Source: Scyliorhinus canicula (Eukaryota). Taken from it: 64,000 bases of DNA. Under the pieces are notes generated by a model. That model did no database searches. It had not been told where the DNA came from and saw only the letters and a program-made list of their open reading frames with translations. This document shows positions 40,990 to 64,000 of the stretch, piece by piece. The position numbers were made by a program, and so were the translations under genes. The DNA is taken from positions 310,001 to 374,000 of the forward strand of contig NW_024056010.1 of NCBI RefSeq assembly GCF_902713615.1, read 5' to 3'. The number at the start of each line of letters is the position of its first letter. The stretch's first letter is position 1.

Positions 40990-42285
40990 TCACTCTCCAG
41001 TGTGAACTCGCTGGTGCCTCTGCAGGGTGGATAAGTGAGTGAATCCCGTCCCACACTTGTGGCAGGTGAATGGCCTCTCTCCAGTGTGAACTGGCTGGTG
41101 CCTCTGCAGGTCGGATGAATCAATGAATCCCTTCCCACACCAGGAGCAGGTGAATGGCCTCTTCCCAGTGTGAATTCTCTGGTGTCTCCGCAGGGCTGAT
41201 GACTGAGTGAATCCCTTCTCACACCAGGAGCAGGTGAATGGTTTCTCCCCAGTGTGAACTTGCTGGTGTTTCTCCAGGTCGGATGACCGAGTGAATCCTT
41301 TCCCACACTTGGAGCAGGTGAATGGCCTCCCCCCAGTGTGAATTCGCTGGTGCTTCTCCAGGTCAGATGACTGAGGGAATCCCATCCGACACCAAGAACA
41401 GGTGAATGGCCTCCCCCCAATGTGAATTCGCTGGTGTTTGCGCAGGGCCGATGACTGAGTGAATCCCTTCCCACACTGAGAGCAGGTGAATGGCCTCTCC
41501 CCAGTGTGAATTCGCTGGTGGTTCCGCAGAGTGGATGACTGAGCGAATCCCTTCCCACACTGAGAGCAGGTGAATGGCCTCTTCCCAGTGTGAATTCGCT
41601 GGTGTGACAGCAGGTTGGATGACTGAGTGAATCCCTTCCCACATTGGGAGCAGATGAACGGCCTCTCCGCAGTGTGAATTCGCTGATGTACAGTGAGGTA
41701 AAATGATCGTGTGAACCCAGTCCCACAGTGAGAGCACCGGAATGGTTTCTCGTCAGTGTGAACACGTTGATGGATCAGCAGTTCCGCAGAACATCTGTAG
41801 CACTTCCCGCAATCTGGACATTGAAAAGGTCTCTCATCAGTGTGAACTCGCTGGTGTTTGCGTAGGGCGGATGGCTGAGTGAATCCTTTCCCACACTTGG
41901 AGCAGGTGAATGGTCTCTCCCCAACATGAATTCGCTGGTGTTTGCGTAGGGCGGATGGCTGAGTGAATCCTTTCCCACACTTGGAGCAGGTGAATGGTCT
42001 CACCCCAATGTGAATACGCTGGTGTTTGTGCAAGTGGGATAACTGAGTGAATCCCTTCCCACACTTGAAGCAGGTGAATGGTCTCTCTCCAGTGTGACTG
42101 CGCCGATGAATTTCCAGCCTGGATGGGTAAGTACATCCTTTCCCACAGTCCGCACATTTCCACTGTTTCTCCTCAGTGTGACTGCATTTGTGGCTTTTGA
42201 GGACCGATGATCGACTGAATCCTCGTCCACACACACGACACGTGTACGATTTCTCCCCACTGTGAACGATACTTTTTTCTTCCAT
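40990..42285 (-). CDS. C2H2 zinc-finger protein A, 15 fingers, 431 aa from MEEKS; no KRAB seen
   Basis: Open ORF with TGERP-type linkers; acceptor ttcacag/ places the exon start at 42393; an upstream coding exon cannot be excluded. Confidence 0.9.
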
Positions 42286-44579
42286 GTTCAAAATCCGCAG
42301 ATATTCAGGATTTGATGAATTGAGGGCTCTGTCAGATCCTGATGTGATGCTTGGTTTGAGTTTCCAGACTTTGAATCCTCCCCTTCGAACACCCTGTGAA
42401 ACTGATTTAAAACAGAAAATAGGGAGTGAGAGAGAACCCACAAAAACACAAAGGCAGGTTGTGAAATTGAGCTGAATGAAGCTGGTCATTTGTGGGGCCG
42501 GCTCTGGGAAAAAGTGACCATGAGAGCTGGTGGATTGTCATAAAAACCCAACTGGCCTGTTTGGGAGGAGAGAGAAAGAGGCGAAGAGAGATTTTGTACA
42601 TCTACAAGACATAGCGAGAGAGTAATTGGCAAAGCAAACTCGACCTTGAGCTTCATAATTAGAAATATTGATACCGAAACAGGATAGCTAGGCTTCAGGT
42701 GGCACAATGATTAGCACTGCTGCCTCACAGTGCCAGGGACTCGGGTTCAATTCCGACCTTGGTGACTGTCTGCGTGGGTTTCCACCCGGTGCTCAGGTTT
42801 CCTTCAACAATCCAAAGAAGGGAAAGTTAGGTGGATTGGCCTTGATAAATTGCCCGTTAGTGTCCAGGGATGTGCAGGTTAGGTGGGGCTATGGGGTTAC
42901 AGGGACAGGGTAAGGGTGTGGGCCTTGGCAGGGTGCCCTTTCAGAGAATCAGTGCAGACGTGATGGGCCGAATGGCCTCCTTCTGCACTGTAGAAATTCT
43001 ATGGTTCTAATTCAATTCAATGAATCTTTATAAAGCTCTGGTTACCACTCTTCAGGAAGGATGTGAAAATTATTGGAGAAGGTGCAGAGGAGATTTAACA
43101 GAATGGTTCCAGCAAAGAGGTTGAGGGGAGATTTGATTCAGGTCCACAAGATTATGCCAGATTTCCATGGGGTGGATAAAGAAACTCTGTTTCCATTCAC
43201 TGATCGTACAAGCAGTTTTGCGTAAAACTTGGATTGAACAATATAAGATCCTGAGGGGTGGATATGGAGAGGATGTTTCCTCTTGTGGGAGAATCTGGAA
43301 CAAGGGTGTCACTGTTGCAAAGTGAGGGGTCACCCATTTAAGATGGAGATGAGGATTTATTTTTCTCTTGAGGGCTGCAAGACAGTGGGTGGCATAGTGC
43401 GTAGCACTGCTGCCTCACAGCACCAGGGACCCAGGTTCAATTACCACCCTGACTATGTGGAGTTTGCAGTTTCTTCCCGTGTCTGTGTGGGTTTCCTCCG
43501 GGTGCTCCAGTTTCCTCCCACAGTTCAAAGATGTGCAGGTTAGGCTGAATCGGTTAGGATTGTATTCACTAGAATGAGAATTCAGAAGAAAGGGGGGGGG
43601 GGATCTCATAGAAACCTATAAAAAGTGGGTGGCGCAGTGGTTAGCACTGCTGCCTCATGTCGCCAAGGACCCGGGTTCGATCCCTGCCCCGGGTCATTGT
43701 CTGTGTGGAGTTTGCACATTCTCCCTGTGTTTGCATGGGTCTCACCCCACAAATCCAAAAATGTGCAGGGTAGGTAGATTGGCCACGCTAAAACTGCCCC
43801 TTAATTGCAAAAAAAAAATTGGGCTCTCTAAATTTATGTTTTAAAAAAAACAGGGCGAGACAGAGTAGATTCAGGAAGGATGTTCCCGATAGTGGTGTGT
43901 TCAGAAATAGGGGTCACAGTCTGAGGATACGGGGTAGACCATTTAGGGCAGAGATGAGGAGAAATTTCTTCACCCAGAGAGCGGTGAGCCTGTGGAATGC
44001 GTCGCCACAGGAATTAATTAAAGCCAAAACATTGCATGTTTTCAAGAAGTAGTTAGATACAGCACTGAGGGTGAAGGGGATCAAAGGATACGGGGGGAAA
44101 GCGGGATTAGGCTATTGAGCCTAATCAGCTCTGATCGCTATGAATGATGGAGCAGGCTCGAAGGGCCAAATGGTCTCCTCCTGGTCCTATTTTCTACATT
44201 GCTCCATATCTGTGCCTGTAAATGGTCCAGAAGGTATGAGGAAGAATGTTTTTACACAGCCAGTGGCAATGACCTTAAACTTGCTGCCCAGGACAGTGTT
44301 TGGAAATAGACACAATAAATGATTTTTTTTTTTTAATTGGATAGAAACCTGAGAGAAATACCTGGGACCTCGGCGCTGGGAGGCAACAGTGCTACTCACT
44401 GCGTCACCGTGCTGCCAGCTGACATTGACATTTTAGTCTAATCTCGCCTTGTAATTTAACCCCGGGGGGTTCAGATATCACTCGGGTAAATCTGTGCTCA
44501 CTCCCTCCAAGGCCATTCTATCCTTCCTCAGGTTTGTTGCCCAGAACTGAACACAGTTCTCCAGGTTTGGTCGAACCAG

Positions 44580-50040: not shown

Positions 50041-50338
50041 GAAATTTCTTCCCTCAGAGGGTGGTTAGTTTTTGCAATTCTCTTCCCCAGAGAACAGTGG
50101 AGGCTGCATCATTAAATATATTCGGAGCAGTGGGTGGAAAGTTACAGCATTTGGGGAATGAGATAGGAAAGCATGTTTCACAGTGTCAATTGTCTGTTCT
50201 GAATTTGTGAGCTGTACTGATAGTGATGACATTTCTAATCTCCTTTAATAGAATATTAAAAGCAAGATCTGACGGCGTCATTCGGCCATTTTACGATCAG
50301 TGTGACTGGAAAAGCACCGAGACACGGACACCAGCACT

Positions 50339-51601
50339 ATGAGGAAACCATGGAAATGTGGAGATTGTGGGAAGGGATTCACTTTCCCATCTGAGCTGGA
50401 AACTCATCGGCGTACTCACACTGGGGAGAGACCATTCACCTGCTCTCATTGTGGGAAGGGATTTACTAATTCGTCTGACTTGTTGAGACATCATCGAGTT
50501 CACTCTGGGGCGAGCCCATTCATCTGCTCCATGTGTGGCAAAGGATTCAGAGATTCATCCAGCCTGCTAAAACATCAGCGAGTTCACACCGGGGAGAAGC
50601 CATTTACCTGCTCAGTGTGTGGGAAGGGATTTACTAATTCATCCAACCAGCTGAGACATCAGCGAGTTCACACTGGTGAGAGACCATCCACCTGCTCCGT
50701 CTGTGGGAAAGGATTCAGAGATTCATCCTGCCTAATGGCACATCAGCAAATTCACACTGGGGTGAGACCATTCACCTGCTTACTGTGTGGGAAGGGATTC
50801 ACTAATTCATCCAACCTGCTGATACACCAGAGAGTTCACACTGGGGAGAGACCGTTCACCTGCTCTCAGTGTGGGAAGGGATTTACTAATTCGTCTGACT
50901 TGTTGAGACATCATCGAGTTCACTCTGGGGAAAGACCATTCACCTGCTCCATGTGTGGCAAAGGATTCACAGATTCATCCAGCCTGCTAACACATCAGCG
51001 AGTTCATACCGGGGAGAAACCATTTACCTGCTCAGTGTGTGGGAAGGGATTTACTAATTCATCCAGCCAGCTGAGACATCAGCGAGTTCACACTGGGGAG
51101 AGACCATCCACCTGCTCCGAATGTGGGAAAGGATTCAGAGATTCATCCTGCCTAATGGCACATCAGCAAATTCACACTGGGGTGAGACTATTCACCTGCT
51201 TACTGTGTGGGAAGGGGTTCACTAATTCATCCAACCTGCTGATACACCAGAGAGTTCACACTGGGGAGAGACCATTCTCCTGCTCTGTCTGTGAGAAGGG
51301 ATTTACTATTTTATCCAACCTGCTGACACACCAGCGAGTTCACACAGGGGAAAGACCATTCACCTGCTCCGTGTGTGGCAAGGGATTTACCAATTCATCC
51401 AACCTGCTGACACACCAGCGAGTTCACACTGGGGAAAGACCATTCACCTGCTCCGTGTGTGGCAAGGGATTTATCAATTCATCCAACCTGCTGACACACC
51501 AGCGAGTTCACACTGATGAGAAGCCATTTATATGCTCCGTGTGTAGGATAGGATGCAGAAATGCATCCTATCTGCGGAGGCACCAGCGAGTTCACAAGTA
51601 A
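50339..51601 (+). CDS. C2H2 zinc-finger protein B, 15 fingers, 420 aa; no KRAB seen
   Basis: Uninterrupted ORF; acceptor ctcctttaatag ending 50251 with an in-frame upstream TGA, so 50339 is the first ATG. Confidence 0.9.
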
Positions 51602-52642: not shown

Positions 52643-55600
52643 GGAGACTTCCGGTGGCTGTGATGGAGTAGGAAGCCACACATTTGAGAGCTCCCGTTTT
52701 AAAGAGACTTTTCGGCTCTTTTGAGAGCCCAAAACGGAAATTTCTCGATGTCTCCCGGTGGGGGAAGGTGCGCTGAACGACTTTCCCCGCAGTCCATGCC
52801 TCGAACTCGGAGTGGAAAGGGGGAAAAAAACGGCAGCAGCTCCTCAGAAAAAACGGGGGAAGGAATCCAAGATGGCGGCCGGGGGAGCCCCAGAGGAGTG
52901 GAGGCTGTGGGCCCAGGAGCAACAAACTGATCTCCTGCGCTGCTTTAAAGAATTCAAGGATGAGGTACTGAGATCTCTGCAGGAAACGAACAGAAGGCTG
53001 TCAGAGATTCAGTCCACCCAGGGTGCTGCCATCAAGGAGTTGCAGACACAGGCCACTGAACGAGAGGAGGAGGCCATGGTCCTCTTGAGTAAGGTGGAGG
53101 GGCACGAGGCACTCCACAAGAAGTGGCAGGAACGCTTCGAGGACCTGGATCACCGCATGAGGCGGAAAAACCTGCGGATCCTGGGCCTTGCGGAGGGGCT
53201 GGAGGGGTCGGACCTGACAGCCTACGTGGCTGTAGTGCTGAACTTGCTAGTGGGGGCCGGGTCTCTCCATCTGCCCTTGGAGCTGGAGGGAGCGCACAGG
53301 GTGCTGGCCAGGAGGCCTAAGGAGAATGAACCCCCGCGTGCGGTGCTGGTGAGGTTCCACCGGTTCAGTGATCGGGAGTGTGTGCTGCGCTGGGCCAAGA
53401 AGGTGAAGAGCAGCAAGTGGGAGAATGGGGTAGTGCGGATCTACCAGGATTGGAGTGCGGAGGTGGCTAAGCGGCGGTCCGGATTTAATCGGACGTAAGA
53501 GGTGCTTTATTGAAAAAAGATAAAGTTCGGAATGTTGCAGCCCGCGCGCCTGTGGGTAACTTATTCGGACCGGCACCATTATTTTGATTCCCGGAGGAAG
53601 CGTGGGCCTTCGTGCGGACGGAGAAACTGGATTTGAACTAGGGGTTGGGGGTTGCGAGGTCGGCTGTAATATATTAGTGCTGGATACTGCTGTTGCTGTG
53701 TTCTCTTTTTCTTCTGTGTTTCTCTTCTTGTTTTAGTACTTTTGCAATTTTGATATGGTTATTTACGGAGGGGTTGTTCTGCTATGTTTTTGTTTTTGTG
53801 CTTGGGGCATTGTTTGGGCTGTGTATCTTGCGGGGAGGGTCGGGGGGTCTGTTGTATTCTATGTCGGAGTGGGGGTATGGAGTGGGGCTGATATTTGGGA
53901 GCTGCGTCAGAAGGGTGTGGTGGGGCAGGGCGAAAGCGCGGGCTTTCCTCTGGTTTCCCGCGCTGCGGGGCTGGGGGGTGGAGACGGTGACGGGGGAGGC
54001 GGGGCCTTAACTGGTTCTTCCCCGCGCTGGAGCGGTGCCTGGAGGAGGGATAGATTGGGGGATGATCCCACTTCGGGAGGGATCGGGCTATTGGCGGGAG
54101 TTTCCGGGGTCAGCAGAAGTTAGCTGACCCACGGAAGTACAATGGAGGACGGTTCGTGGCTGGGAGGGTTCCTAGCCTGGGGGGGAAGGGAGGGGGGGGA
54201 AAGGGGAATACCGGGTTGCTGCTGGTAGGGTCAAGAAGGAGCTGGTGGGGGCTAGAGGTGAGGTGTTGTTGCTGTGGGGACTGGGTCAGCGGGGGGTGCT
54301 GGTCTGGGGCGGGCAGTCGACGGGCTATGGCTAGTCGACGGGGGAGGGGGCGGGACGCCCTCTGATCCGGTTGGTCACCTGGAATGCGAGAGGATTGAAT
54401 GGGCCGGTGAAGCGGTCGAGGGTACTTGCTCATCTGAGGGGGCTAAAGGCAGATGTGGCAATGCTTCAGGAGACCCACCTGAAGGTGGCGGACCAAGTCC
54501 GTCTGAGGAAGGGGTGGGTGGGGCAGGTTTTCCACTCTGGGTTGGATGTGAAGAACCGGGGAGTGGCGATTCTGGTGGGGACAAATGTGTCGTTTGAGGC
54601 ATCTGAGGTGGTGGCGGATAAGGGGGGTAGGTATGTTATGGTTAGGGGCAGGCTACAGGGTGAGAAGGTGGTACTTGCTAGTGTGTATGCCCCAAATTGG
54701 GACGATGCGGGCTTTATGAGGCGTATGCTGGGACGGGTCCCGGATCTAGAGGCGGGAGGTCTGATTATGGGGGGGACTTCAATACGGTGTTGGATCCTTC
54801 ACTGGATCGGTCCAGCTCTAGGACGGGTAGGAGGCCGGCGGCGGCCAAGGTACTGAGAGGGTTTATGGACCAGATGGGAGGGGTGGATCCATGGAGGTTT
54901 GTGAGGCCGAGGGCACGGGAGTACTCTTTCTTCTCCCACGTACATAGGGTATATTCTCGGATAGACTTCTTCGTGGTGAGTAGGGGACTGATTTCGAGAG
55001 TGGAGGAGGCTGAATATTCGGCCATTGCAATCTCCGACCACGCTCCGCATTGGATAGAGTTGGAGATGGGGGAGGTGCGGGGCCAGCGCCCGTTGTGGCG
55101 GTTGGATGTGGGTTGTTGGCGGAGGAGGAGGTGTGTAGGAGGGTCCGGGCAAGTATTGAGGGGTACCTCGAGGTGAATGATACGGGGGAGGTCCGGGTGG
55201 GGATGGTCTGGGAAGCCCTGAAGGCAGTGATTCGTGGGGAACTGATATCGATCCGGGCACAGAGGGAGAGGAGCGAGAGGAGGGAGAGGGATAGACTGGT
55301 GGGAAAGGTGCTGGAGGTAGACAGGAGGTACTCAGAGGCACCAGAGGAGGGACTGTTGGGGGAGAGGCGCAGCCAGCAGGCTGAATTTGATTTGCTGACC
55401 ACTAGAAAGGCGGAGAACAGTGGAGGAAGGCACAAGGGGCAGTGTACGAACATGGTGAAAAGGCGAGTAGGATGCTCATCAGGGGCGCCATGTGCTAGGG
55501 GGGGCTCATCAGCTCCGCAAGCGGGATGCGGCTAAGGAAATTGCTGGAGCGAGAGACAAGAGTGGGAATGTGGTGCGGAAGGGGGTAGAGGTTAATGAGG

Positions 55601-58600
55601 TCTTCAAGGACTTTTACGGGGAACTGTACCGGTCGGAGCCAATGGGGGAGAGGAGGGGAATGGAGAGGTTCCTCGATGGGCTTTCTTTCCCGAAGGTGCA
55701 GGAGGAGCAGATGGAGGGGTTGGGTGCGCCGATTGAGCTGGAGGAGCTAGTTAAGGGGATCGGGTAGATGCAGTCAGGGAAGGCGCCGGGGCCAGATGGG
55801 TTCCCGGTGGAATTTTATAAAAGGTTTGTGGACCTAGTGGGCCCCTTGCTGGTGCGGACTCTTAATGAAGCGTGGGAAGGGGGGACTTTGCCCCCGACGA
55901 TGTCGCGGGCGCTAATTTCATTAATCTTAAAGAGGGACAAGGACCCCCAGCAGTGTGGTTCATACAGGCCCATATCTCTCCTCAATGTGGATGCCAAGGT
56001 GCTGGCAAAAATCCTGGCCACCAGGATAGAGGACTGTGTGCCAGGGGTTATACACGAGGACCAGGCAGGGTTTGTGAAGGGAAGGCAGCTGAACACGAAT
56101 GTGCGGAGATTGTTGAATGTCATCATGATGCCGGCGATTGAGGGGGAGGCTGAGATAGTGGTGGCGCTGGATGCAGAGAAGGCCTTCGATAGAGTGGAGT
56201 GGGGGTACTTATGGGAGGTGTTGGGGAGGTTTGGATTTGGTGAAGGGTTTATTAGATGGGTGAGGCTGCTATATGAGGCCCCGATGGCGTGTTGGCCACG
56301 AATGGGAGGAAGTCGGAGTACTTCCTGCTTTACCGAGGACCAGGCAAGGTTGCCCCCTGTCCCCTTGTTGTTTGCAATGGCAACCGAGCCGTTGGCAATG
56401 GCGTTGAGGGATTCAGGGAGGTGGAGAGGTTTGGTGCGGGGTGGGGAGGAACATCGGGTGTCGTTGTATGCCGATGACCTGTTACTGTATGTGGCAGACC
56501 CGGTGGAGGGATGCCGGGGGCAGGGCCGGCTCAAGGTACCGGGCAACTCGGGGCAGTCGCCCGGGGCGCCATGTGCTAGGGGCGCCATCAAGGAGTGCGT
56601 GACAAAGACAAGGAAATTTCCACAACCGTCAGCTTTACACGTCACCTAAGGTGGGTCGCGGGCGGCTGAGGACACGGGCATAGTGACCGTCCTTGTCTAT
56701 AAGACTTTGCATATCAACATGTGGCGTAGGTCAGGTGAGAGTGGAAGGTGTGGGTGGGGTGGGGTCACCTGGGTTGGGCATCAGCCACATCAGTTGTCTT
56801 TTTGTTTCTTGAGACTGTGGACCGTCTGATTACTTAAACTTGTCAGGACTCAAGACCAGGAGCTGCATAGGCTCGGCAGCACAACTGCTGAAATGTAGAC
56901 ACGGACAAATCACAATAACCGTGAAGAGCATTATATGAAGAAAACCCACACTGGTAGACAGATTTATTCTGGACGTTTCAAAGGCAACTGCCTTCCTCAT
57001 CAGACTAGAACAAAAAGACCAGTAGCTCTTTATGAACTTTCAGAAATGCCTGCTTCTGATCCTGCAATGCGACATGAAGCAGAGACTCTTGTAACACAAA
57101 TAGAAGATTACAGTTTCCTAGTGATGATGAATGTCTGGTATGATGTCTTAGGCAGAGTAAATTGTTGTCAGCAAAACTATGCAGAACACCTCTGTGGAAC
57201 TGTCTACCACAGTTTCATTAATGAACAGTGTCACTGATTACTTAATTGATTATCGTGCAAATGGATATGAAAAGCACTAGAGTCAGCAAAAGAATTAGCT
57301 ACAGAATTAGATGTAGAGCCCATTTTTAGAAGTAAAGAATAAGCAGAAAAGGAGGCTGTTTGAATACGAGTGCATTGACGAGGTTCCAAATGCAGATGAC
57401 CCAGAAAAAAGATTTAAAAATCATGTGTTCAATGTAATACTCGACAGAGCTATTAATTCTTTATCAGAGAGATTTGAACAGTTACAAAGTTTCAATAACA
57501 CTTGGGGATTTTTAAATAACCTAAAAGATCTGCCAGATAAAAATAAACTCAAAGTAGCATGTCAAGGTTTGGAGGATAAGTTAAGGTACCAAGAAAATAG
57601 TGATATTAATGGATGTGATCTCTTGACTGAACTGGATATTGCAAAAGAATTATTTCCTGAAGATGTAAAGCTTCCAATAGAAGCCGTTAGGTTCATAAAC
57701 ACTAATAAGTTACAGGCTGTCATGCCAAATCTGTGGGTTGCATTAAGAATAATGCTTACAATACCTATTACTGTGGCCACCGTAGAGAGAAGCTTTAGTA
57801 AACTAAAGCTTATAAAGACATACTTACGGTCGTCCATGACTCAAGACAGATTAAATTCTTTGGCAATTTTGTCAATAGAAAATGATCTTGTAAAGAAGAT
57901 AGATATAGAAAGTGCCATGAAAAGATTTGCACATCTAAAGGCTAGAAAAAAAATGTTTTAGGTAGGATAATAAATGTTTTCCAGCATCTGTTCATTTGTT
58001 CATACTTTTTATTAGGAGAAAATTCATTACAGCTACAGTTTTTATCATCGTGAACTTACGGAATATAGTATGCTTCTCAGTTTGTTCAGATTCTGTACAG
58101 ATTTGAATGCCTCGATTTTGTAATATTGTAATAAACTCTTTATGCTACATTTTCAGTTTTTCTCCTTGTGAAAATTTTTAAAAATTATACTTGTAAGGGC
58201 GCCGAAGTTCAGCTTGCCCGGGGCGCCAGCAACCCTAGGGCCGGCGCTGGCCGGGGCTGATGGAGCTGCTGGCTGAGTTTGGGACTTTTTCAGGCTATAA
58301 ACTAAATTTAGGCAAGAGTGAGGTGTTTGTGGTGCACCCTGGAGACCAGGAGGAAGGAATTGGTAGGCTCCCGCTTAGGAGGGCAGGGAGAGTTTAGGTA
58401 CCTGGGGGTGCAGGTGGCCAGGGACTGGGGGACTCTTCACAAGCATAATTTCACCAGACTTGTGGATCAGATGGAGGAGGAGTTGAAGAGGTGGGACATG
58501 CTCCCATTGTCGTTGGCGGGGAGGGTGCAGTCCGTCAAAATGACGGTGCTTCCGAGGTTCTTGTTCCTCTTTCAGTGCCTGCCCATCTTCATCCCCAGGG

Positions 58601-60127
58601 CCTTCTTTAGGAGAGTGACTAGCAGTATTTTGAGCTTTGTGTGGGCACATGGGACTCCGAGAGTGAAGAGGGTTTTCCTGGAGCGAGGGAGGGATAGAGG
58701 CGGGCTGGCGCTGCCCAACCTTTTGGGGTACTATTGGGTGGCCAATGTGTCAATGGTGCGTAAATGGGTGATGGGGGGGGCGTGGAAAAGAATGGAGATG
58801 GCATCTTGTAGAGGTACGAGCCTGGGTGCCTTGGCAACGGCGCCGTTGCCGCTCTTTCCTAAGAGGTATACCACGAGCCCGGTGGTGGCGGCGACCCTAA
58901 GAATCTGGGGACAGTGGAGACAGCACAGGAGGGAAACAGGGGGCTCGATGGAGGCTCCATTGGGTGGAAATCATCGGTTCATCCCGGGGAACAATGATGG
59001 GGGATTTAGGGGGTGGCAAAGGGTGGACATCAGTAAATTGAGGGACCTGTTTATTGGCGGGAGGTTTGCGGGCCTGGGGGAACTGGAAGATAAATTTGGG
59101 CTCGCCCAAGGGAACATGTTCAGATACTTGCAGGTAAAGGCGTTTGCTAGGCGACAGGTAGAGGAGTTCCCTTTGCTGCCCTCGCGGGGGGGCGATGGAC
59201 AGAGTGTTTTTGTGGGTGTGGGTCGAGAGGGAAGGTGTCTGACATCTATAAGGTAATGCAGGAGGTGGAGGAGTCGTCAGGGGAGGAGCTGAAGGCTAAA
59301 TGGGAGGGGGAACTTGGGGGCAGATAGAGGACGGGAACTTGGGCGGATGCCTTGGAGAGAGTCAACTCTTCCTCCTCATGTGCGAGGCTTAGCCTCATCC
59401 AATTTAAGGTGGCTGCACCGGGCCCACATGTCCGGGACTAGGATGAGTAGGTTCTTTATGGGGTGAGGACAGGTGTACCAGTGTTTCGGGGAATCCAGCG
59501 AACCATGCCCATATGTTCTGGGCATGCCCCAGCACTGGAAGAATTCTGGAAGGGGGTGGCGGGGACGGCGTCGAGGGTGGTTGGATCCAGGATCAAACCA
59601 GGGTGGGGACTCGCGATGTTTGGAGTTGCGGTGGACCGGGAGTGCAGGAGGCGAAAGAGGCCGGTGTCCTGGCCTTTGCGTCCCTAGTAACCCGGCGGAG
59701 GATCTTGCTGCAGTGGAAGGACGCGAGGCCCCCAAGTGTGGAGACCTGGATCAGTGACATGGCGGGATTTATAAAACTGGAGAGGGTCAAATTTGCCCTG
59801 AGAGGATCAATACAAGGGTTCTATAAACGGTGGCAGCCTTTTCTGGACTTCCTGGCTCAAAGATAGGTATCTTGGTCAATAGCAGCAGCAACCCGGGGGG
59901 GGGGGGGGGGGGGGGGGGGGTGTCCTTATTATATGTTCTATATTTTTTCTCTACGGTTATGTAACTTAACATTGTGTTAATTTAAGTTGTTGTTAATATG
60001 TTGTGTTGTTCATTGAGGAGGGGCGAATGTTTATGGTTGCTATCATTATTGTTATTGTTGGTATTTTATTATGGTTCGATGTTGTATAAATTCAAAATTT
60101 TCAATAAAAATAATTTAAAAAAAAAAG
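52643..60127 (+). mobile_element. Full-length Tx1/L1-clade LINE, inactivated and interrupted by a hAT
   Basis: 5' UTR; ORF1 MAAGGAPEEW from 52871 (L1-ORF1-like LRILGL, PRAVLVRF); ORF2 APE 54371-54856; RT 55768-56520 (APGPDG, YRPISLLN, LDAEKAFD, YADD); 58318-59256; 59513-59866; 26-G run 59895-59920; A-rich end. Confidence 0.95.
56521..58249 (+). mobile_element. hAT DNA transposon, internally deleted (Tip100-like by inference)
   Basis: Imperfect TIRs cagggccggctcaagg / cagcgccggccctagg (13/16); 8-bp TSD gccggggg 56513-56520 / gccggggc 58250-58257; ORF 57425-57961 has the hAT dimerisation motif TIPITVATVERSFSKLKLIKTYLRSSM. Confidence 0.92.
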
Positions 60128-61177: not shown

Positions 61178-62163
61178 TGTAGAAGTCAGGTATTTTAAAT
61201 ACACTTAATATAGGTAAGAAGACTGTTTATGACAGAAATATTAAATCCCAGTTTTAAAATGAAAGAAATATACAACTTCCAAACTCAGACATGTGTTTGG
61301 GAAAAACAGAACCACTGATAAAAACATCACATTCTTTCAAGGGCAGCAGCAAAATCCCATGGGTTTTAAGGTGGTATAATCAAAGGTTCCATTGTTCTGA
61401 ATTCTGGCCACTTGTGATAACAGCCTGAACCACATTCCATAACGTATGCAAGCTGAAACATTTTAGACTGTGTCAAAATACAGTTTCATTTATTTTCGAA
61501 ATAATAGCATGAGATGACATAATGTCTTAATTGTTGCAGATAAGCAACAATTGGAAGTGGCGTTGCATTGGGAGGATGGATGGCTTGTTATCAAATCAAA
61601 TGTGTTTTGAATATAGGTTAAACCAATTAGGATTATATTGGGGTGTGATCGGATCGCTTAAGACAGATATCAAAGAGTATATCCATGGATGATTTGGCCA
61701 CCATTTTAGACGAGAGACAAGACGAGAGACGAGAAGAAAGACAAGTCAGAAAGACAAGAGAAAAGACAAGAAGACAGAAAGTCAGAAAGACACAGAGAGA
61801 AAGAGACAGGAAAGAGACAAAGAGAACAAGACAGAAAGAGAGAGAGAGAAAGTAAAGGAAGAGAATTAGAAAAGAGTTCTGTATTCCTATTTCATTTTCA
61901 TACTTGACTTCAGCCTTTGACTTTTAAAGTTGTGTTCAGGCTATTGTCTCAGAAGATAATTCCTGTGATTCTTTGAAGAAAATCAAATTGTCTACAAACT
62001 ACCTTTTTCATTTTCAAGTTGTAACCAATGAACTTCAATAAAACAATTCTATTTGCACCTGACAAGTTTTTAACTTGCTTTTCTACTGAGTTTCAGCAAT
62101 GTCTCACCAACAACCGGCAACCGTAAATTAGATAAAACTGGATTCAAATCCTAAGATACTACA
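61178..62163 (+). mobile_element. 5' LTR of an LTR retroelement / ERV
   Basis: TGTAG...CTACA inverted termini, AATAAA 62037-62042, followed by a 2-nt spacer and a PBS. Confidence 0.8.
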
Positions 62164-62165
62164 AT

Positions 62166-62177
62166 TGGCGTAGTCGG
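62166..62177 (+). promoter_or_regulatory. Primer-binding site complementary to tRNA-Ser 3' end
   Basis: TGGCGTAGTCGG matches the complement of vertebrate tRNA-Ser ..CCGACUACGCCA for 12 nt, then degenerates. Confidence 0.8.
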
Positions 62178-62482
62178 GCAGCAGGGGAGGAGTTCTGATT
62201 CGACCTTCGGAGAGGTTCGGAAAGCTTTGTGAGAAATCGGAGGAGGATCAGGCGACGACGGAAGCTTCGGGAATAATCGGAAGAGATCGGAAGACAGTCG
62301 GAATCCACGGCTAGACTGGGGTAAGAAATATCTTTTTCACCCATTAAAAGTCTTAAAGCCGCATCAATCAGTGCTTCGACCCCTGAAAAGGACATTTTTA
62401 TAGACTGTGTTAAATCAATCAGCTGGTGGTTGTTGAGACTAACGCAGCCTACACACAAAAAGTTAAGTGAAAGGTTGAATTT

Positions 62483-64000
62483 ATGGCTGATCCAGTTGAA
62501 AGTATAGATTTAGACCCTTTAGAAGGCAGAAATTTACTCCCTACGACGGTAAAAGGAGGAACTGGGATACCAGATGTGTCCATTGAAGATATGTTGGGGG
62601 ATTTTGGGTCTTTCTTTCGTAAACAATTTGACCTATGTGTAACCTCAAAAAAAATTGAATCAAAGTATAATATCTGCAGAGGACAGTGGTCCTTTGATAA
62701 TATCAAGAGAGCATGGGGAAAAAGCACACGATTGCACAGTGCAGAACGTGTTAAATGGTCCCTGGCAATTATGGGACAATTACGCAGACAGCAAGAGATA
62801 ATTACTAAAAATAAAACTGATCATGAATATAGGACCACTAAAGACCAACTAATTGCAGTTGTTGAAGAATTGCAAGATGCAAAGGCAAAACTTGAATCTG
62901 ATGATGAAACTGGAACTGATTTGGAAAACAAAATCTCTGAACTCCAGCAGTTGCCTGTTCAAATAGCAGAAGTACAAAATCAAATTTTTGAGGTGGACTT
63001 AAAGAACCAAAAGCTGCTAGCAAAAACTGAGCAAATTGAACTTGAAAATTCCAAGTTAATTGAAGAAAACTGTGTTTTAGAAAAAGAATTGCGAGATGCA
63101 GAATTCAGTTTTGAACAGGATGATGCCAAATTCCAACAGTTATCTGTTCAATTAGCAGAATTCCAAAATCAGATTTTTGAGGTGGACTTAAAAAACCAAA
63201 AGCTGCTAGCAAAAACTGAGCAAATTGAACTTGAAAATTCCAAGTTAATTGAAGAAAACTGTGTTTTAGAAAGAGAATTGCGAGATGTAAATTCCAAATT
63301 TGAACAGGACGATGAACTTAGAACATAATTGCAAAACAAAACTTCTAAACTCCAGCAGTTATCTGTTCAAATAGAGTTCCAAGATCAAATTTTTGACGTA
63401 GAGTCAAGATACAAACAGTTGCAATCAAAAACTGATCAAACTGAACTTGAAAATTCCAAGTTAATTGAAGAAAAATGTGTTTTAGAAAAAGAATTGCAAG
63501 ATACAAAAGCAAAACTTGAACATTATGATGAAATTGGAACAGAATTGCATAACAAAACTTCTAAACTCCAGCAGTTATCTTCTCAAATAGCAGAATTACA
63601 AAATCAAATTTTTTCAGTGGAGTCAAAATATCAAAAGTTGCAATCAAAAACTGAGAGAATTGAACTTGAAAAATACAAGGTAATGGAACAAAAATGTGTT
63701 TTAGAAAGAGAACTGCAAGATGCAGAATCTAAACTTGAACATTATGATGAAATTGGAACAGAATTGCAAAACAAAACCTCTAAACTCCAGAAGTTATCTA
63801 TTCAAACAGCAGAATTACAAGATCAAATTTTTGAAGTTGAGTCAAGATATCAAAGGTTGCAATCAAAAACTGAGCGAATTGAATATGATAATTGCAAGTT
63901 AATCGAAGAAAGATATGTTTTAAAAAAGATTTAAATATTGCCACTGAAAGCGGCAAGGTCCTAAAAGACTGGATTCAAACAGCAGCTGAAGTAACACAAA
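62483..64000 (+). pseudogene. Gag-like first ORF with coiled-coil tandem repeats, disrupted; runs off the window
   Basis: ORFs 62483-63328 and 63329-63934 share one frame; the internal TAA corresponds to GAA in sister repeats; a frameshift near 63920 leads to an open -1 frame to 64000; first ORF after LTR-PBS. Confidence 0.65.

What the first reader, a model, noticed from the sequence alone, without database searches (positions are those of the whole stretch)
61178..64000. tRNA-Ser-primed retrovirus-like element whose first ORF is an expanding coiled-coil array
A 986-bp LTR (TGTAG..CTACA), a Ser PBS, a leader with about seven TCGG(A/G) repeats (62207-62303) and a strong donor G/GTAAGA at 62321, the position where retroviruses splice to env. 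The first ORF has about 130 unique residues, then five heptad-rich repeats with spacings of 189, 216, 219 and 219 nt (anchors 63071, 63260, 63476, 63695, 63914). I do not recognise matrix or capsid motifs in the visible part. A long repeat-built coiled coil at the Gag N-terminus is unusual. It could mark a poorly described lineage (lokiretrovirus-like, SnRV/spuma-related or Ty3/Gypsy; unresolved). Only two lesions are seen (TAA 63326-63328 and a 1-nt loss near 63920), so the insertion may be young.
Basis: partly seen in the sequence, partly recalled or inferred. Interest (0 to 1): 0.7.

Follow-up and report, generated by a model that had tools for sequence, protein, structure and literature searches.

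The report
Shark retrovirus with stretched coiled Gag
This is the front end of a multi-copy shark endogenous retrovirus whose structural (Gag) protein carries a predicted coiled rod of about 360 residues, built from four or five repeated units; it is likely a stretched version of the short coil already known in related fish retroviruses.

Summary
In detail: 986-bp LTR, Ser-type primer site, TCGG repeats, and five repeat anchors at the stated places. Beyond the window the ORF continues as a true Gag (capsid, one zinc knuckle), followed in the -1 frame by pro-RT-RNase H-integrase. Other copies add a gamma-type env, a second LTR and 5-bp target duplications. RNA reads join the 62321 donor to an acceptor just before env. 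At least 67 copies keep the leader; 55 have Ser-type, 10 exact Arg and 2 mixed primer sites. The RT sits in its own shark-teleost clade on the snakehead-retrovirus/foamy side, not with epsilonretroviruses. It is not Ty3/Gypsy, and its env is not of the lokiretrovirus type. An N-terminal Gag coil is already published for SnRV, Ovex1, ERNI and Bik-1; what is unusual here is its length and repeat construction (4 or 5 units among copies, one or differently expanded units in a sister shark species). The two 'lesions' are probably assembly errors, and the locus is not especially young (about 2% LTR divergence). Verdict: new variant of a known kind, moderate interest.

The parts
61178..62163 (+). 5' LTR, 986 bp, TG..CA; AATAAA at 62037
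   Evidence: paired with a second LTR in sister and other copies
62166..62183 (+). Primer-binding site, tRNA-Ser(AGA) type (12 consecutive matches)
62207..62302 (+). Seven TCGG(A/G) motifs in the leader upstream of the donor; role not shown
   Evidence: no unusual fold
62321..62326 (+). Splice donor used for the env mRNA (intron of 6282 nt in sister copy L004)
   Evidence: 7 raw reads in 2 RNA runs plus 1 contig; acceptor context; donor present in 23 of 23 copies
62483..62864 (+). Gag N-terminal region: small predicted helical domain (residues about 34-100) in the matrix position; second residue is Ala, so no myristoylation signal
   Evidence: aligned counterparts in teleost relatives; no named family
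62865..63932 (+). Five-unit coiled-coil array (63, 72, 73, 73 residues between anchors); broken in this assembly by a stop at 63326-63328 and a 1-nt loss near 63922
63933..64000 (+). Start of the linker to capsid; capsid, zinc knuckle, frameshift site and pol follow beyond the window (L001:2900-7124)

Best explanation
The stretch is the 5' LTR, leader and gag start of a multi-copy endogenous retrovirus (LTR-gag-pol-env-LTR, about 10.3 kb), and the repeat array is likely the short matrix-to-capsid coil of its fish-virus relatives, lengthened by in-frame tandem duplication into a predicted self-associating stalk. Shown: gene order, domains, pol in the -1 frame behind an A_AAA_AAC heptamer, spliced env RNA, 5-bp target duplications, 4 or 5 units among copies, and Ser- and Arg-type primer sites. 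Inferred: Pol is made by -1 ribosomal frameshifting; the array grew by template slippage or recombination during reverse transcription; the coil bundles neighbouring Gag molecules between the membrane-binding domain and the capsid lattice and is cut away from capsid at the Ala-Pro site before the predicted capsid beta-hairpin; its exact length matters little provided frame and helix are kept. The window's copy is one of at least three assembled duplicates of a single insertion in a zinc-finger gene cluster.
For: Domains. Capsid fold: Foldseek MLV capsid E 1.4e-5; best predicted viral matches WEHV2, WDSV and Rhinella marina ERV Gag; profile matches 97%, 97% and 84% to reference Gags L057, L072, L060. 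Model pLDDT 80-94 over most of the N-domain and capsid, helix from 86 to 520 with four short breaks, beta-hairpin 558-584. Teleost Gag relatives have the same N-domain / short coil / capsid order. Heptamer intact in 17 of 18 copies that hold the site; three related Gags end in a GN stop, which fits a slippery site (inference). Unit-scale indels are 210, 189, 21 and 9 nt, all in frame, in 9 of 20 comparable copies; pN/pS in the coil 0.35, capsid 0.25, pol 0.41. TSD of 5 bp in 6 of 7 testable copies, 5 distinct sites. Splice joint.
Against: No direct test of oligomer state, particle shape or frameshifting. No stable RNA structure follows the heptamer (z -0.60). Coil confidence is uneven (pLDDT under 50 at 272-326) and pTM is 0.28. 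Between repeat units dN/dS is 0.78-0.85 in 8 of 10 pairs (0.41 and 1.45 in the others), so residue-level constraint is weak. The pN/pS values sum 15 non-independent pairs, and 4- versus 5-unit alignments can inflate pS in the coil. A straight 360-430 residue coil would be about 55-65 nm (0.15 nm per residue, recalled), hard to fit radially in an ordinary retroviral particle, so 'simple spacer' needs folding or tilting. I did not search protein databases with the coil itself.
Confidence: 0.72

Rival explanations
1. The length is itself an adaptation: the long coil sets an unusually wide membrane-to-capsid distance or larger particle, or is a multivalent handle for a host trafficking protein.
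For: Independent expansions with different units in the sister shark species (17- and 11-residue units) and in a shad relative (P0141); youngest duplication (units 1-2, dS 0.10) is present in 15 of 23 copies; all unit-scale indels keep frame.
Against: Four- and five-unit forms both spread; a one-unit form exists in the sister species (P0004); inter-unit dN/dS near 0.8. Repeats slip easily, and frame-keeping follows from gag being essential.
Confidence: 0.17
2. This locus is a host-co-opted Gag (as Bik-1, ERNI or Ovex1) kept for a cellular role.
For: Sister copies C273 and C517 have identical open 949-residue gag genes while C517's pol is broken; NCBI annotates a gene there (P0001); family RNA is present; coil-bearing Gags have been co-opted in zebrafish and chicken.
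Against: Identity is explained by recent duplication (flanks 98-99.6% identical); gag is open in 7 of 23 copies and pol in 6 of 23, the pattern of a recently mobile family in a slowly evolving genome; read depth over gag is 0-4 and cannot be assigned to a locus.
Confidence: 0.07
3. The array is a captured cellular coiled-coil gene (one copy is annotated 'CFAP58-like').
For: NCBI name of P0005; weak Pfam hits to many coiled-coil families.
Against: None of the 25 Pfam hits shown reaches its cut-off; P0005 is itself a family copy (91% identical over the part matched); relatives have a short coil at the same place; the units are internal duplicates (dS 0.10-0.30).
Confidence: 0.03

Closest known systems
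Snakehead retrovirus (SnRV) and SnRV-like ERVs; reference contig L060 (named from layout and length, recalled)
   Same: Non-myristoylated Gag with a coil before capsid (PMC2717909 passages), one CCHC knuckle, the identical 18-nt Arg primer site found in 10 of 67 copies, same side of the RT tree.
   Different: RT only 41% identical; L060 has gag and pol in one frame separated by a stop, an env of over 1100 residues, and an unrepeated coil of about 65-100 residues. A joint clade with SnRV is not resolved (foamy+SnRV branch 61/23).
Epsilonretroviruses WDSV/WEHV (L057-L059; names recalled) and Xen1-like elements (L072)
   Same: Best capsid matches by profile and fold; RNase H and integrase score best against L072.
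   Different: RT clade with L057/L058 rejected (AU p 0.004); in-frame gag-pol in L057; different env; no accessory ORFs of 100+ residues seen here.
Unnamed teleost ERVs (carp, fathead minnow, Cirrhinus, pike, shad, Coilia, Astyanax)
   Same: Pol 50-64% identical, one clade at 100/99 for RT and 99-100 for IN and RNase H; same Gag layout.
   Different: Their coils are about 50-180 residues by a crude measure against 331 here.
Coil-bearing Gags Bik-1 (lokiretrovirus), ERNI/ENS, Ovex1, foamy Gag
   Same: N-terminal coiled coil ahead of a capsid fold (PMC12067270 and PMC2717909 passages).
   Different: None is described as a tandem-repeat array in the passages read; this element keeps a zinc knuckle, pol and a gamma-type env.
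XtERV-S (Xenopus)
   Same: tRNA-Ser(AGA/TGA) primer, class I env, env start overlapping the pol stop (PMC8278194 passages).
   Different: XtERV-S has in-frame gag-pol, no Cys-His motif and a 530-residue Gag.
ERV-Spuma.0-Sca (catshark, PMC10699275)
   Same: Same host species, gag-pol-env with long LTRs, placed on the foamy side.
   Different: 9220 nt, LTR 866, 671-nt leader, gag 2259 nt, env 123 nt after pol (supplement rows), against about 10.3 kb, LTR 986, 319-nt leader, gag 2850 nt. Its sequence was not compared, so a looser kinship is open.

Membership tests
Retroviridae (endogenous retrovirus) | LTR-PBS-gag-pro-pol-env-PPT-LTR with target duplication | tested here: met
   on sister and other copies; the window's copy is cut by a gap inside integrase.
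Retroviridae (endogenous retrovirus) | Spliced env mRNA from a leader donor | tested here: met
   GT..AG joint, 7 reads in 2 RNA runs of 2 studies, plus 1 contig.
Gamma-type envelope | Immunosuppressive domain, CX6CC, furin site, SU CXXC | tested here: met
   TLV_coat E 1e-14; motifs read.
SnRV-like ERVs | RT forms one clade with SnRV | tested here: inconclusive
   Inside a 13-row clade with L060 and foamy viruses (100/99), but its own 8-row clade stands apart and the fork is open.
SnRV-like ERVs | Coil between non-myristoylated N-terminus and capsid | tested here: met
SnRV-like ERVs | gag and pol in one frame separated by a stop; large non-gamma env | tested here: not met
   Pol is in the -1 frame and env is 459 codons, gamma-type versus L060.
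Epsilonretrovirus | RT clade with WDSV/WEHV | tested here: not met
   AU p 0.004. Integrase tree leans that way without a star and does not reject the RT grouping (p 0.48).
Epsilonretrovirus | In-frame gag-pol, epsilon env, accessory genes | tested here: not met
   PMC passage on epsilon env in bioRxiv 2021.11.23.469661.
Spumaretrovirinae (foamy) | Gag without Cys-His box, Gag_spuma domains, 4-nt TSD | tested here: not met
   CCHC present, no Gag_spuma hit (controls hit); TSD 5 bp versus 4 (PMC5210030).
Lokiretrovirus | Env resembling negative-strand RNA virus fusion proteins | tested here: not met
   Env is TLV_coat gamma-type; criterion from PMC8922424.
Lokiretrovirus | RT sister to all other retroviruses | not tested
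   No lokiretrovirus reference in the tree.
Ty3/Gypsy | Single RNase H, Ty3-type RT and Gag, no gamma env | tested here: not met
   Tether plus second RNase H, MLVIN_C, env; MLV RT 418 bits versus Ty3 166.
ERV-S / ERV-L (class III, clade Huo) | RT clade with ERV-L/ERV-S | not tested
   No ERV-L or ERV-S reference could be fetched; Ser primer and class I env match, Cys-His motif and frameshift differ from XtERV-S.

The most novel reading that the evidence does not exclude
An unnamed shark-teleost retrovirus lineage between SnRV/foamy and class I viruses, with frameshifted pol and two alternative tRNA primers, whose Gag uses a repeat-tunable coiled stalk of up to about 60 nm, giving a particle architecture unlike any described retrovirus.
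Probability: 0.2. Interest if true: 0.72.

Novelty: new variant of a known kind. Interest (0 to 1): 0.42.

Why it matters
Fish retroviruses between SnRV and class I are poorly sampled, and this clade combines traits usually kept apart: RT on the SnRV/foamy side, epsilon-like capsid, -1 frameshift, gamma-type env, 5-bp TSD. Its Gag is a natural length series (1, 4, 5 units and other expansions) of the matrix-capsid spacer, which bears on how much distance retroviral assembly tolerates. Ser and Arg primer sites in a family 97-99% identical show primer switching. Copies also mislead annotation (a 'CFAP58-like' gene is this Gag). If the length is mere slippage, it is one more ERV family.

Tried and rejected
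Single-sequence structure prediction was uninformative (pLDDT 41). VIA second look returned only generic long helices, so the N-domain has no fold assignment; the Atlas gave no family for it (best 0.89). No solved structure matches Gag by sequence beyond the knuckle. Single-protein scan of viral contigs found nothing. RT/IN chimera: considered because RNase H and IN score best against class I, but not shown (AU p 0.48; RNase H tree unresolved). Stimulatory RNA structure after the heptamer and a special leader fold: not found. A tRNA matching the commonest variant primer site beyond 15 bases was not among the 59 hits. A read-based check of the window's two lesions was not obtained, so the assembly-error reading rests on copy comparison. 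The original SnRV paper is not held. Eight literature searches listed no description of this family or of a repeat-built Gag coil; Repbase/Dfam, subscription papers and the supplements of bioRxiv 2021.11.23.469661 (which names ERV lineages from 6 cartilaginous fish) were not seen, so it may already be catalogued. Earlier scan findings: none on this family.

Full report
Observation. The repeat region has a 3.46-residue hydrophobic period far above shuffles.

What lies beyond the window. The window is G000:C618:310001-374000. Downstream the ORF continues into a capsid region and one CCHC knuckle; pol follows in the -1 frame, overlapping the gag end at an A_AAA_AAC heptamer, with protease, RT (YVDD), tether, RNase H and integrase, until an N gap at about C618:378125. 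Two other contigs, C273 and C517, hold the same insertion with the same flanks. In both, gag is one open frame of 949 residues from the ATG; they continue into a gamma-type env (TLV_coat; CWVC, RKKR, immunosuppressive domain, CX6CC) and a 3' LTR that lacks its last 13 bases, so the target duplication of this locus cannot be read. NCBI names on protein hits give the host as the small-spotted catshark.

Lesions and age. Over 5961 internal bases the window's copy differs from C273 by 4 substitutions and 14 small indels, 12 of them losses of 1-3 bases in the window's copy. That skew is typical of unpolished long-read sequence (established knowledge), so the two lesions probably carry no age signal; reads could not be checked. 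The window's 5' LTR differs from C273's 3' LTR by 2.0% substitutions and from C517's by 5.9%; those two 3' LTRs differ by 5.9% from each other, so at least one copy is mosaic. At the rate assumed in PMC10699275 (0.5e-9 per site per year; Methods section read) 2.0% is about 20 million years. Eight other full LTR pairs differ by 0.26-3.5%, so the family was mobile more recently than this insertion.

The family. The leader/gag start has 370 first-look candidates (40 scored, 96-100% identical) and a strict leader pattern finds 67 copies. I examined the top 20 further copies. Of 23 copies, gag is open in 7, pol in 6 and env in 4. Six of 7 testable copies have a 5-bp target duplication, at 5 distinct sites, one in a rearranged copy; one copy has none; 13 could not be tested. 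Primer sites among the 67: 10 exact tRNA-Arg(ACG), 3 exact tRNA-Ser(AGA), 52 Ser-type with a variable 3' part, 2 mixed. Unit number is five in 15 copies, four in 7... more exactly: five in 14 of 23 plus the sister duplicates' shared layout is given as five anchors in L004, L007, the window and 11 others (14), four in 7, and fewer in 2 deleted copies. Unit-scale indels are 210, 189, 21 and 9 nt; three copies, the window's among them, have small frameshifting indels. Proteins from a sister shark species have one unit (P0004) or expansions of 17- and 11-residue units.

Expression. In three raw RNA runs and one contig set, reads cover 29-30 of 30 bins at low depth, mostly on one strand inside the element. 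Seven reads in two runs, and one contig, skip 6282 bases between GT at the position matching window 62321 and an AG about 200 bases upstream of the env start. Reads are 92-100% alike and come from many copies, so this shows family splicing, not activity of this locus.

Gag anatomy. With 13 aligned relatives the model has mean pLDDT 64.6: a small helical domain (34-100), a helix from 86 to 520 with four short breaks, a disordered linker, a beta-hairpin (558-584) right after an Ala-Pro site, a two-domain capsid (591-777) and the knuckle. Foldseek's two hits under E 0.001 in solved structures are MLV capsid; among predicted viral structures the best are WEHV2, WDSV and Rhinella marina ERV Gag. 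Teleost relatives (minnow, Cirrhinus, pike, shad) share the order N-domain, coil, capsid, with coils of about 50-180 residues by a crude composition measure against 331 here.

Placement. Pol relatives fall from 50-64% identity (carp cluster, Coilia, Alosa, Astyanax, unnamed) to about 42%. In the careful RT tree of 32 rows (26 of 58 rows left out for time) the element is in an 8-row clade (100/99) inside a 13-row clade with an SnRV-like reference and two foamy viruses (100/99); the fork within is open. A clade with the WDSV-like references is rejected. Integrase and RNase H quick trees keep the 8-row clade but do not place it firmly, and integrase does not reject the RT grouping (three partial or long rows dropped in 114). 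Foamy, delta and lenti references were confirmed by Pfam; the names SnRV, WDSV, WEHV, SSSV and Xen1 for L057-L061 and L072 are recalled from layout and length. No ERV-L, ERV-S, loki or Ty3 reference was in the trees.

How it likely works. Shown: layout, splicing, target duplication, unit variation in frame, pN/pS below 1 in coil (0.35), capsid (0.25) and pol (0.41) among copies with open frames (non-independent pairs). Inferred: -1 frameshifting at the heptamer (intact in 17 of 18 copies with the site; no stimulatory structure found); growth of the array by slippage during reverse transcription, units 1-2 being the latest duplication (dS 0.10 against 0.15-0.30); a self-associating stalk between membrane domain and capsid that tolerates a change of one unit. 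A straight rod of this length would be about 55-65 nm (recalled rise per residue), so it must tilt, fold at its breaks or enlarge the particle; that is the open question.

Literature. Passages read: PMC12067270 (coil in Bik-1, ERNI, foamy Gag), PMC2717909 (coil in Ovex1 and SnRV Gag), PMC8278194, PMC5210030, PMC8922424, PMC4977317 (an elephant-shark lineage clusters with SnRV), bioRxiv 2021.11.23.469661 (passages and part of Results), PMC10699275 (passages, Methods part 1, supplement rows). None describes this family as far as read.

Verdict. A real, multi-copy, env-bearing endogenous retrovirus of an apparently unnamed shark-teleost clade. The Gag coil is a known kind of feature taken to an unusual, repeat-built length. 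New variant of a known kind; interest 0.42.

Noticed in passing
family leaders; L016-L018, L024, L027, L029: Ser- and Arg-type primer sites and mixed forms in one family; the three Arg copies with an intact array, and the one mixed copy examined, all have four units and the longer LTR variant.
   Followed up: partly
L020, L011, L010 (gag 3' end): A second length-variable repeat, 21 nt (EEPYPRR-like, with PxxY/YP motifs), after the zinc knuckle; strongly expanded in L020.
   Followed up: no
P0008 cluster (carp): The closest Pol is in a cyprinid cluster at 63-66% identity, high for a shark-teleost split; suggests cross-class transmission.
   Followed up: partly
P0005 (contig C17), P0001 (C517): Gag copies are annotated by NCBI as host genes, one as 'CFAP58-like'; P0006 fuses this Gag to host-like exons in the sister species.
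   Followed up: no
L022: Internally deleted copy with gag start fused in frame to the env 3' half (419-codon ORF).
   Followed up: no
window 40990-42537 and 50306-51601: C2H2 zinc-finger arrays; the provirus sits in a duplicated zinc-finger gene cluster shared by C618, C273 and C517.
   Followed up: partly
window 52725-59256: L1-like LINE pieces (ORF1 and RT) interrupted near 57317-57961 by a hAT-like transposase C-terminal fragment (identified by eye, not searched).
   Followed up: no
G000:C6:207686055-207817555: Tandem array of tRNA-Ser(AGA)-type 3' ends at about 2-kb spacing.
   Followed up: no
G000:C9:158957225-158959585: Two family LTRs in inverted orientation about 380 bases apart.
   Followed up: no
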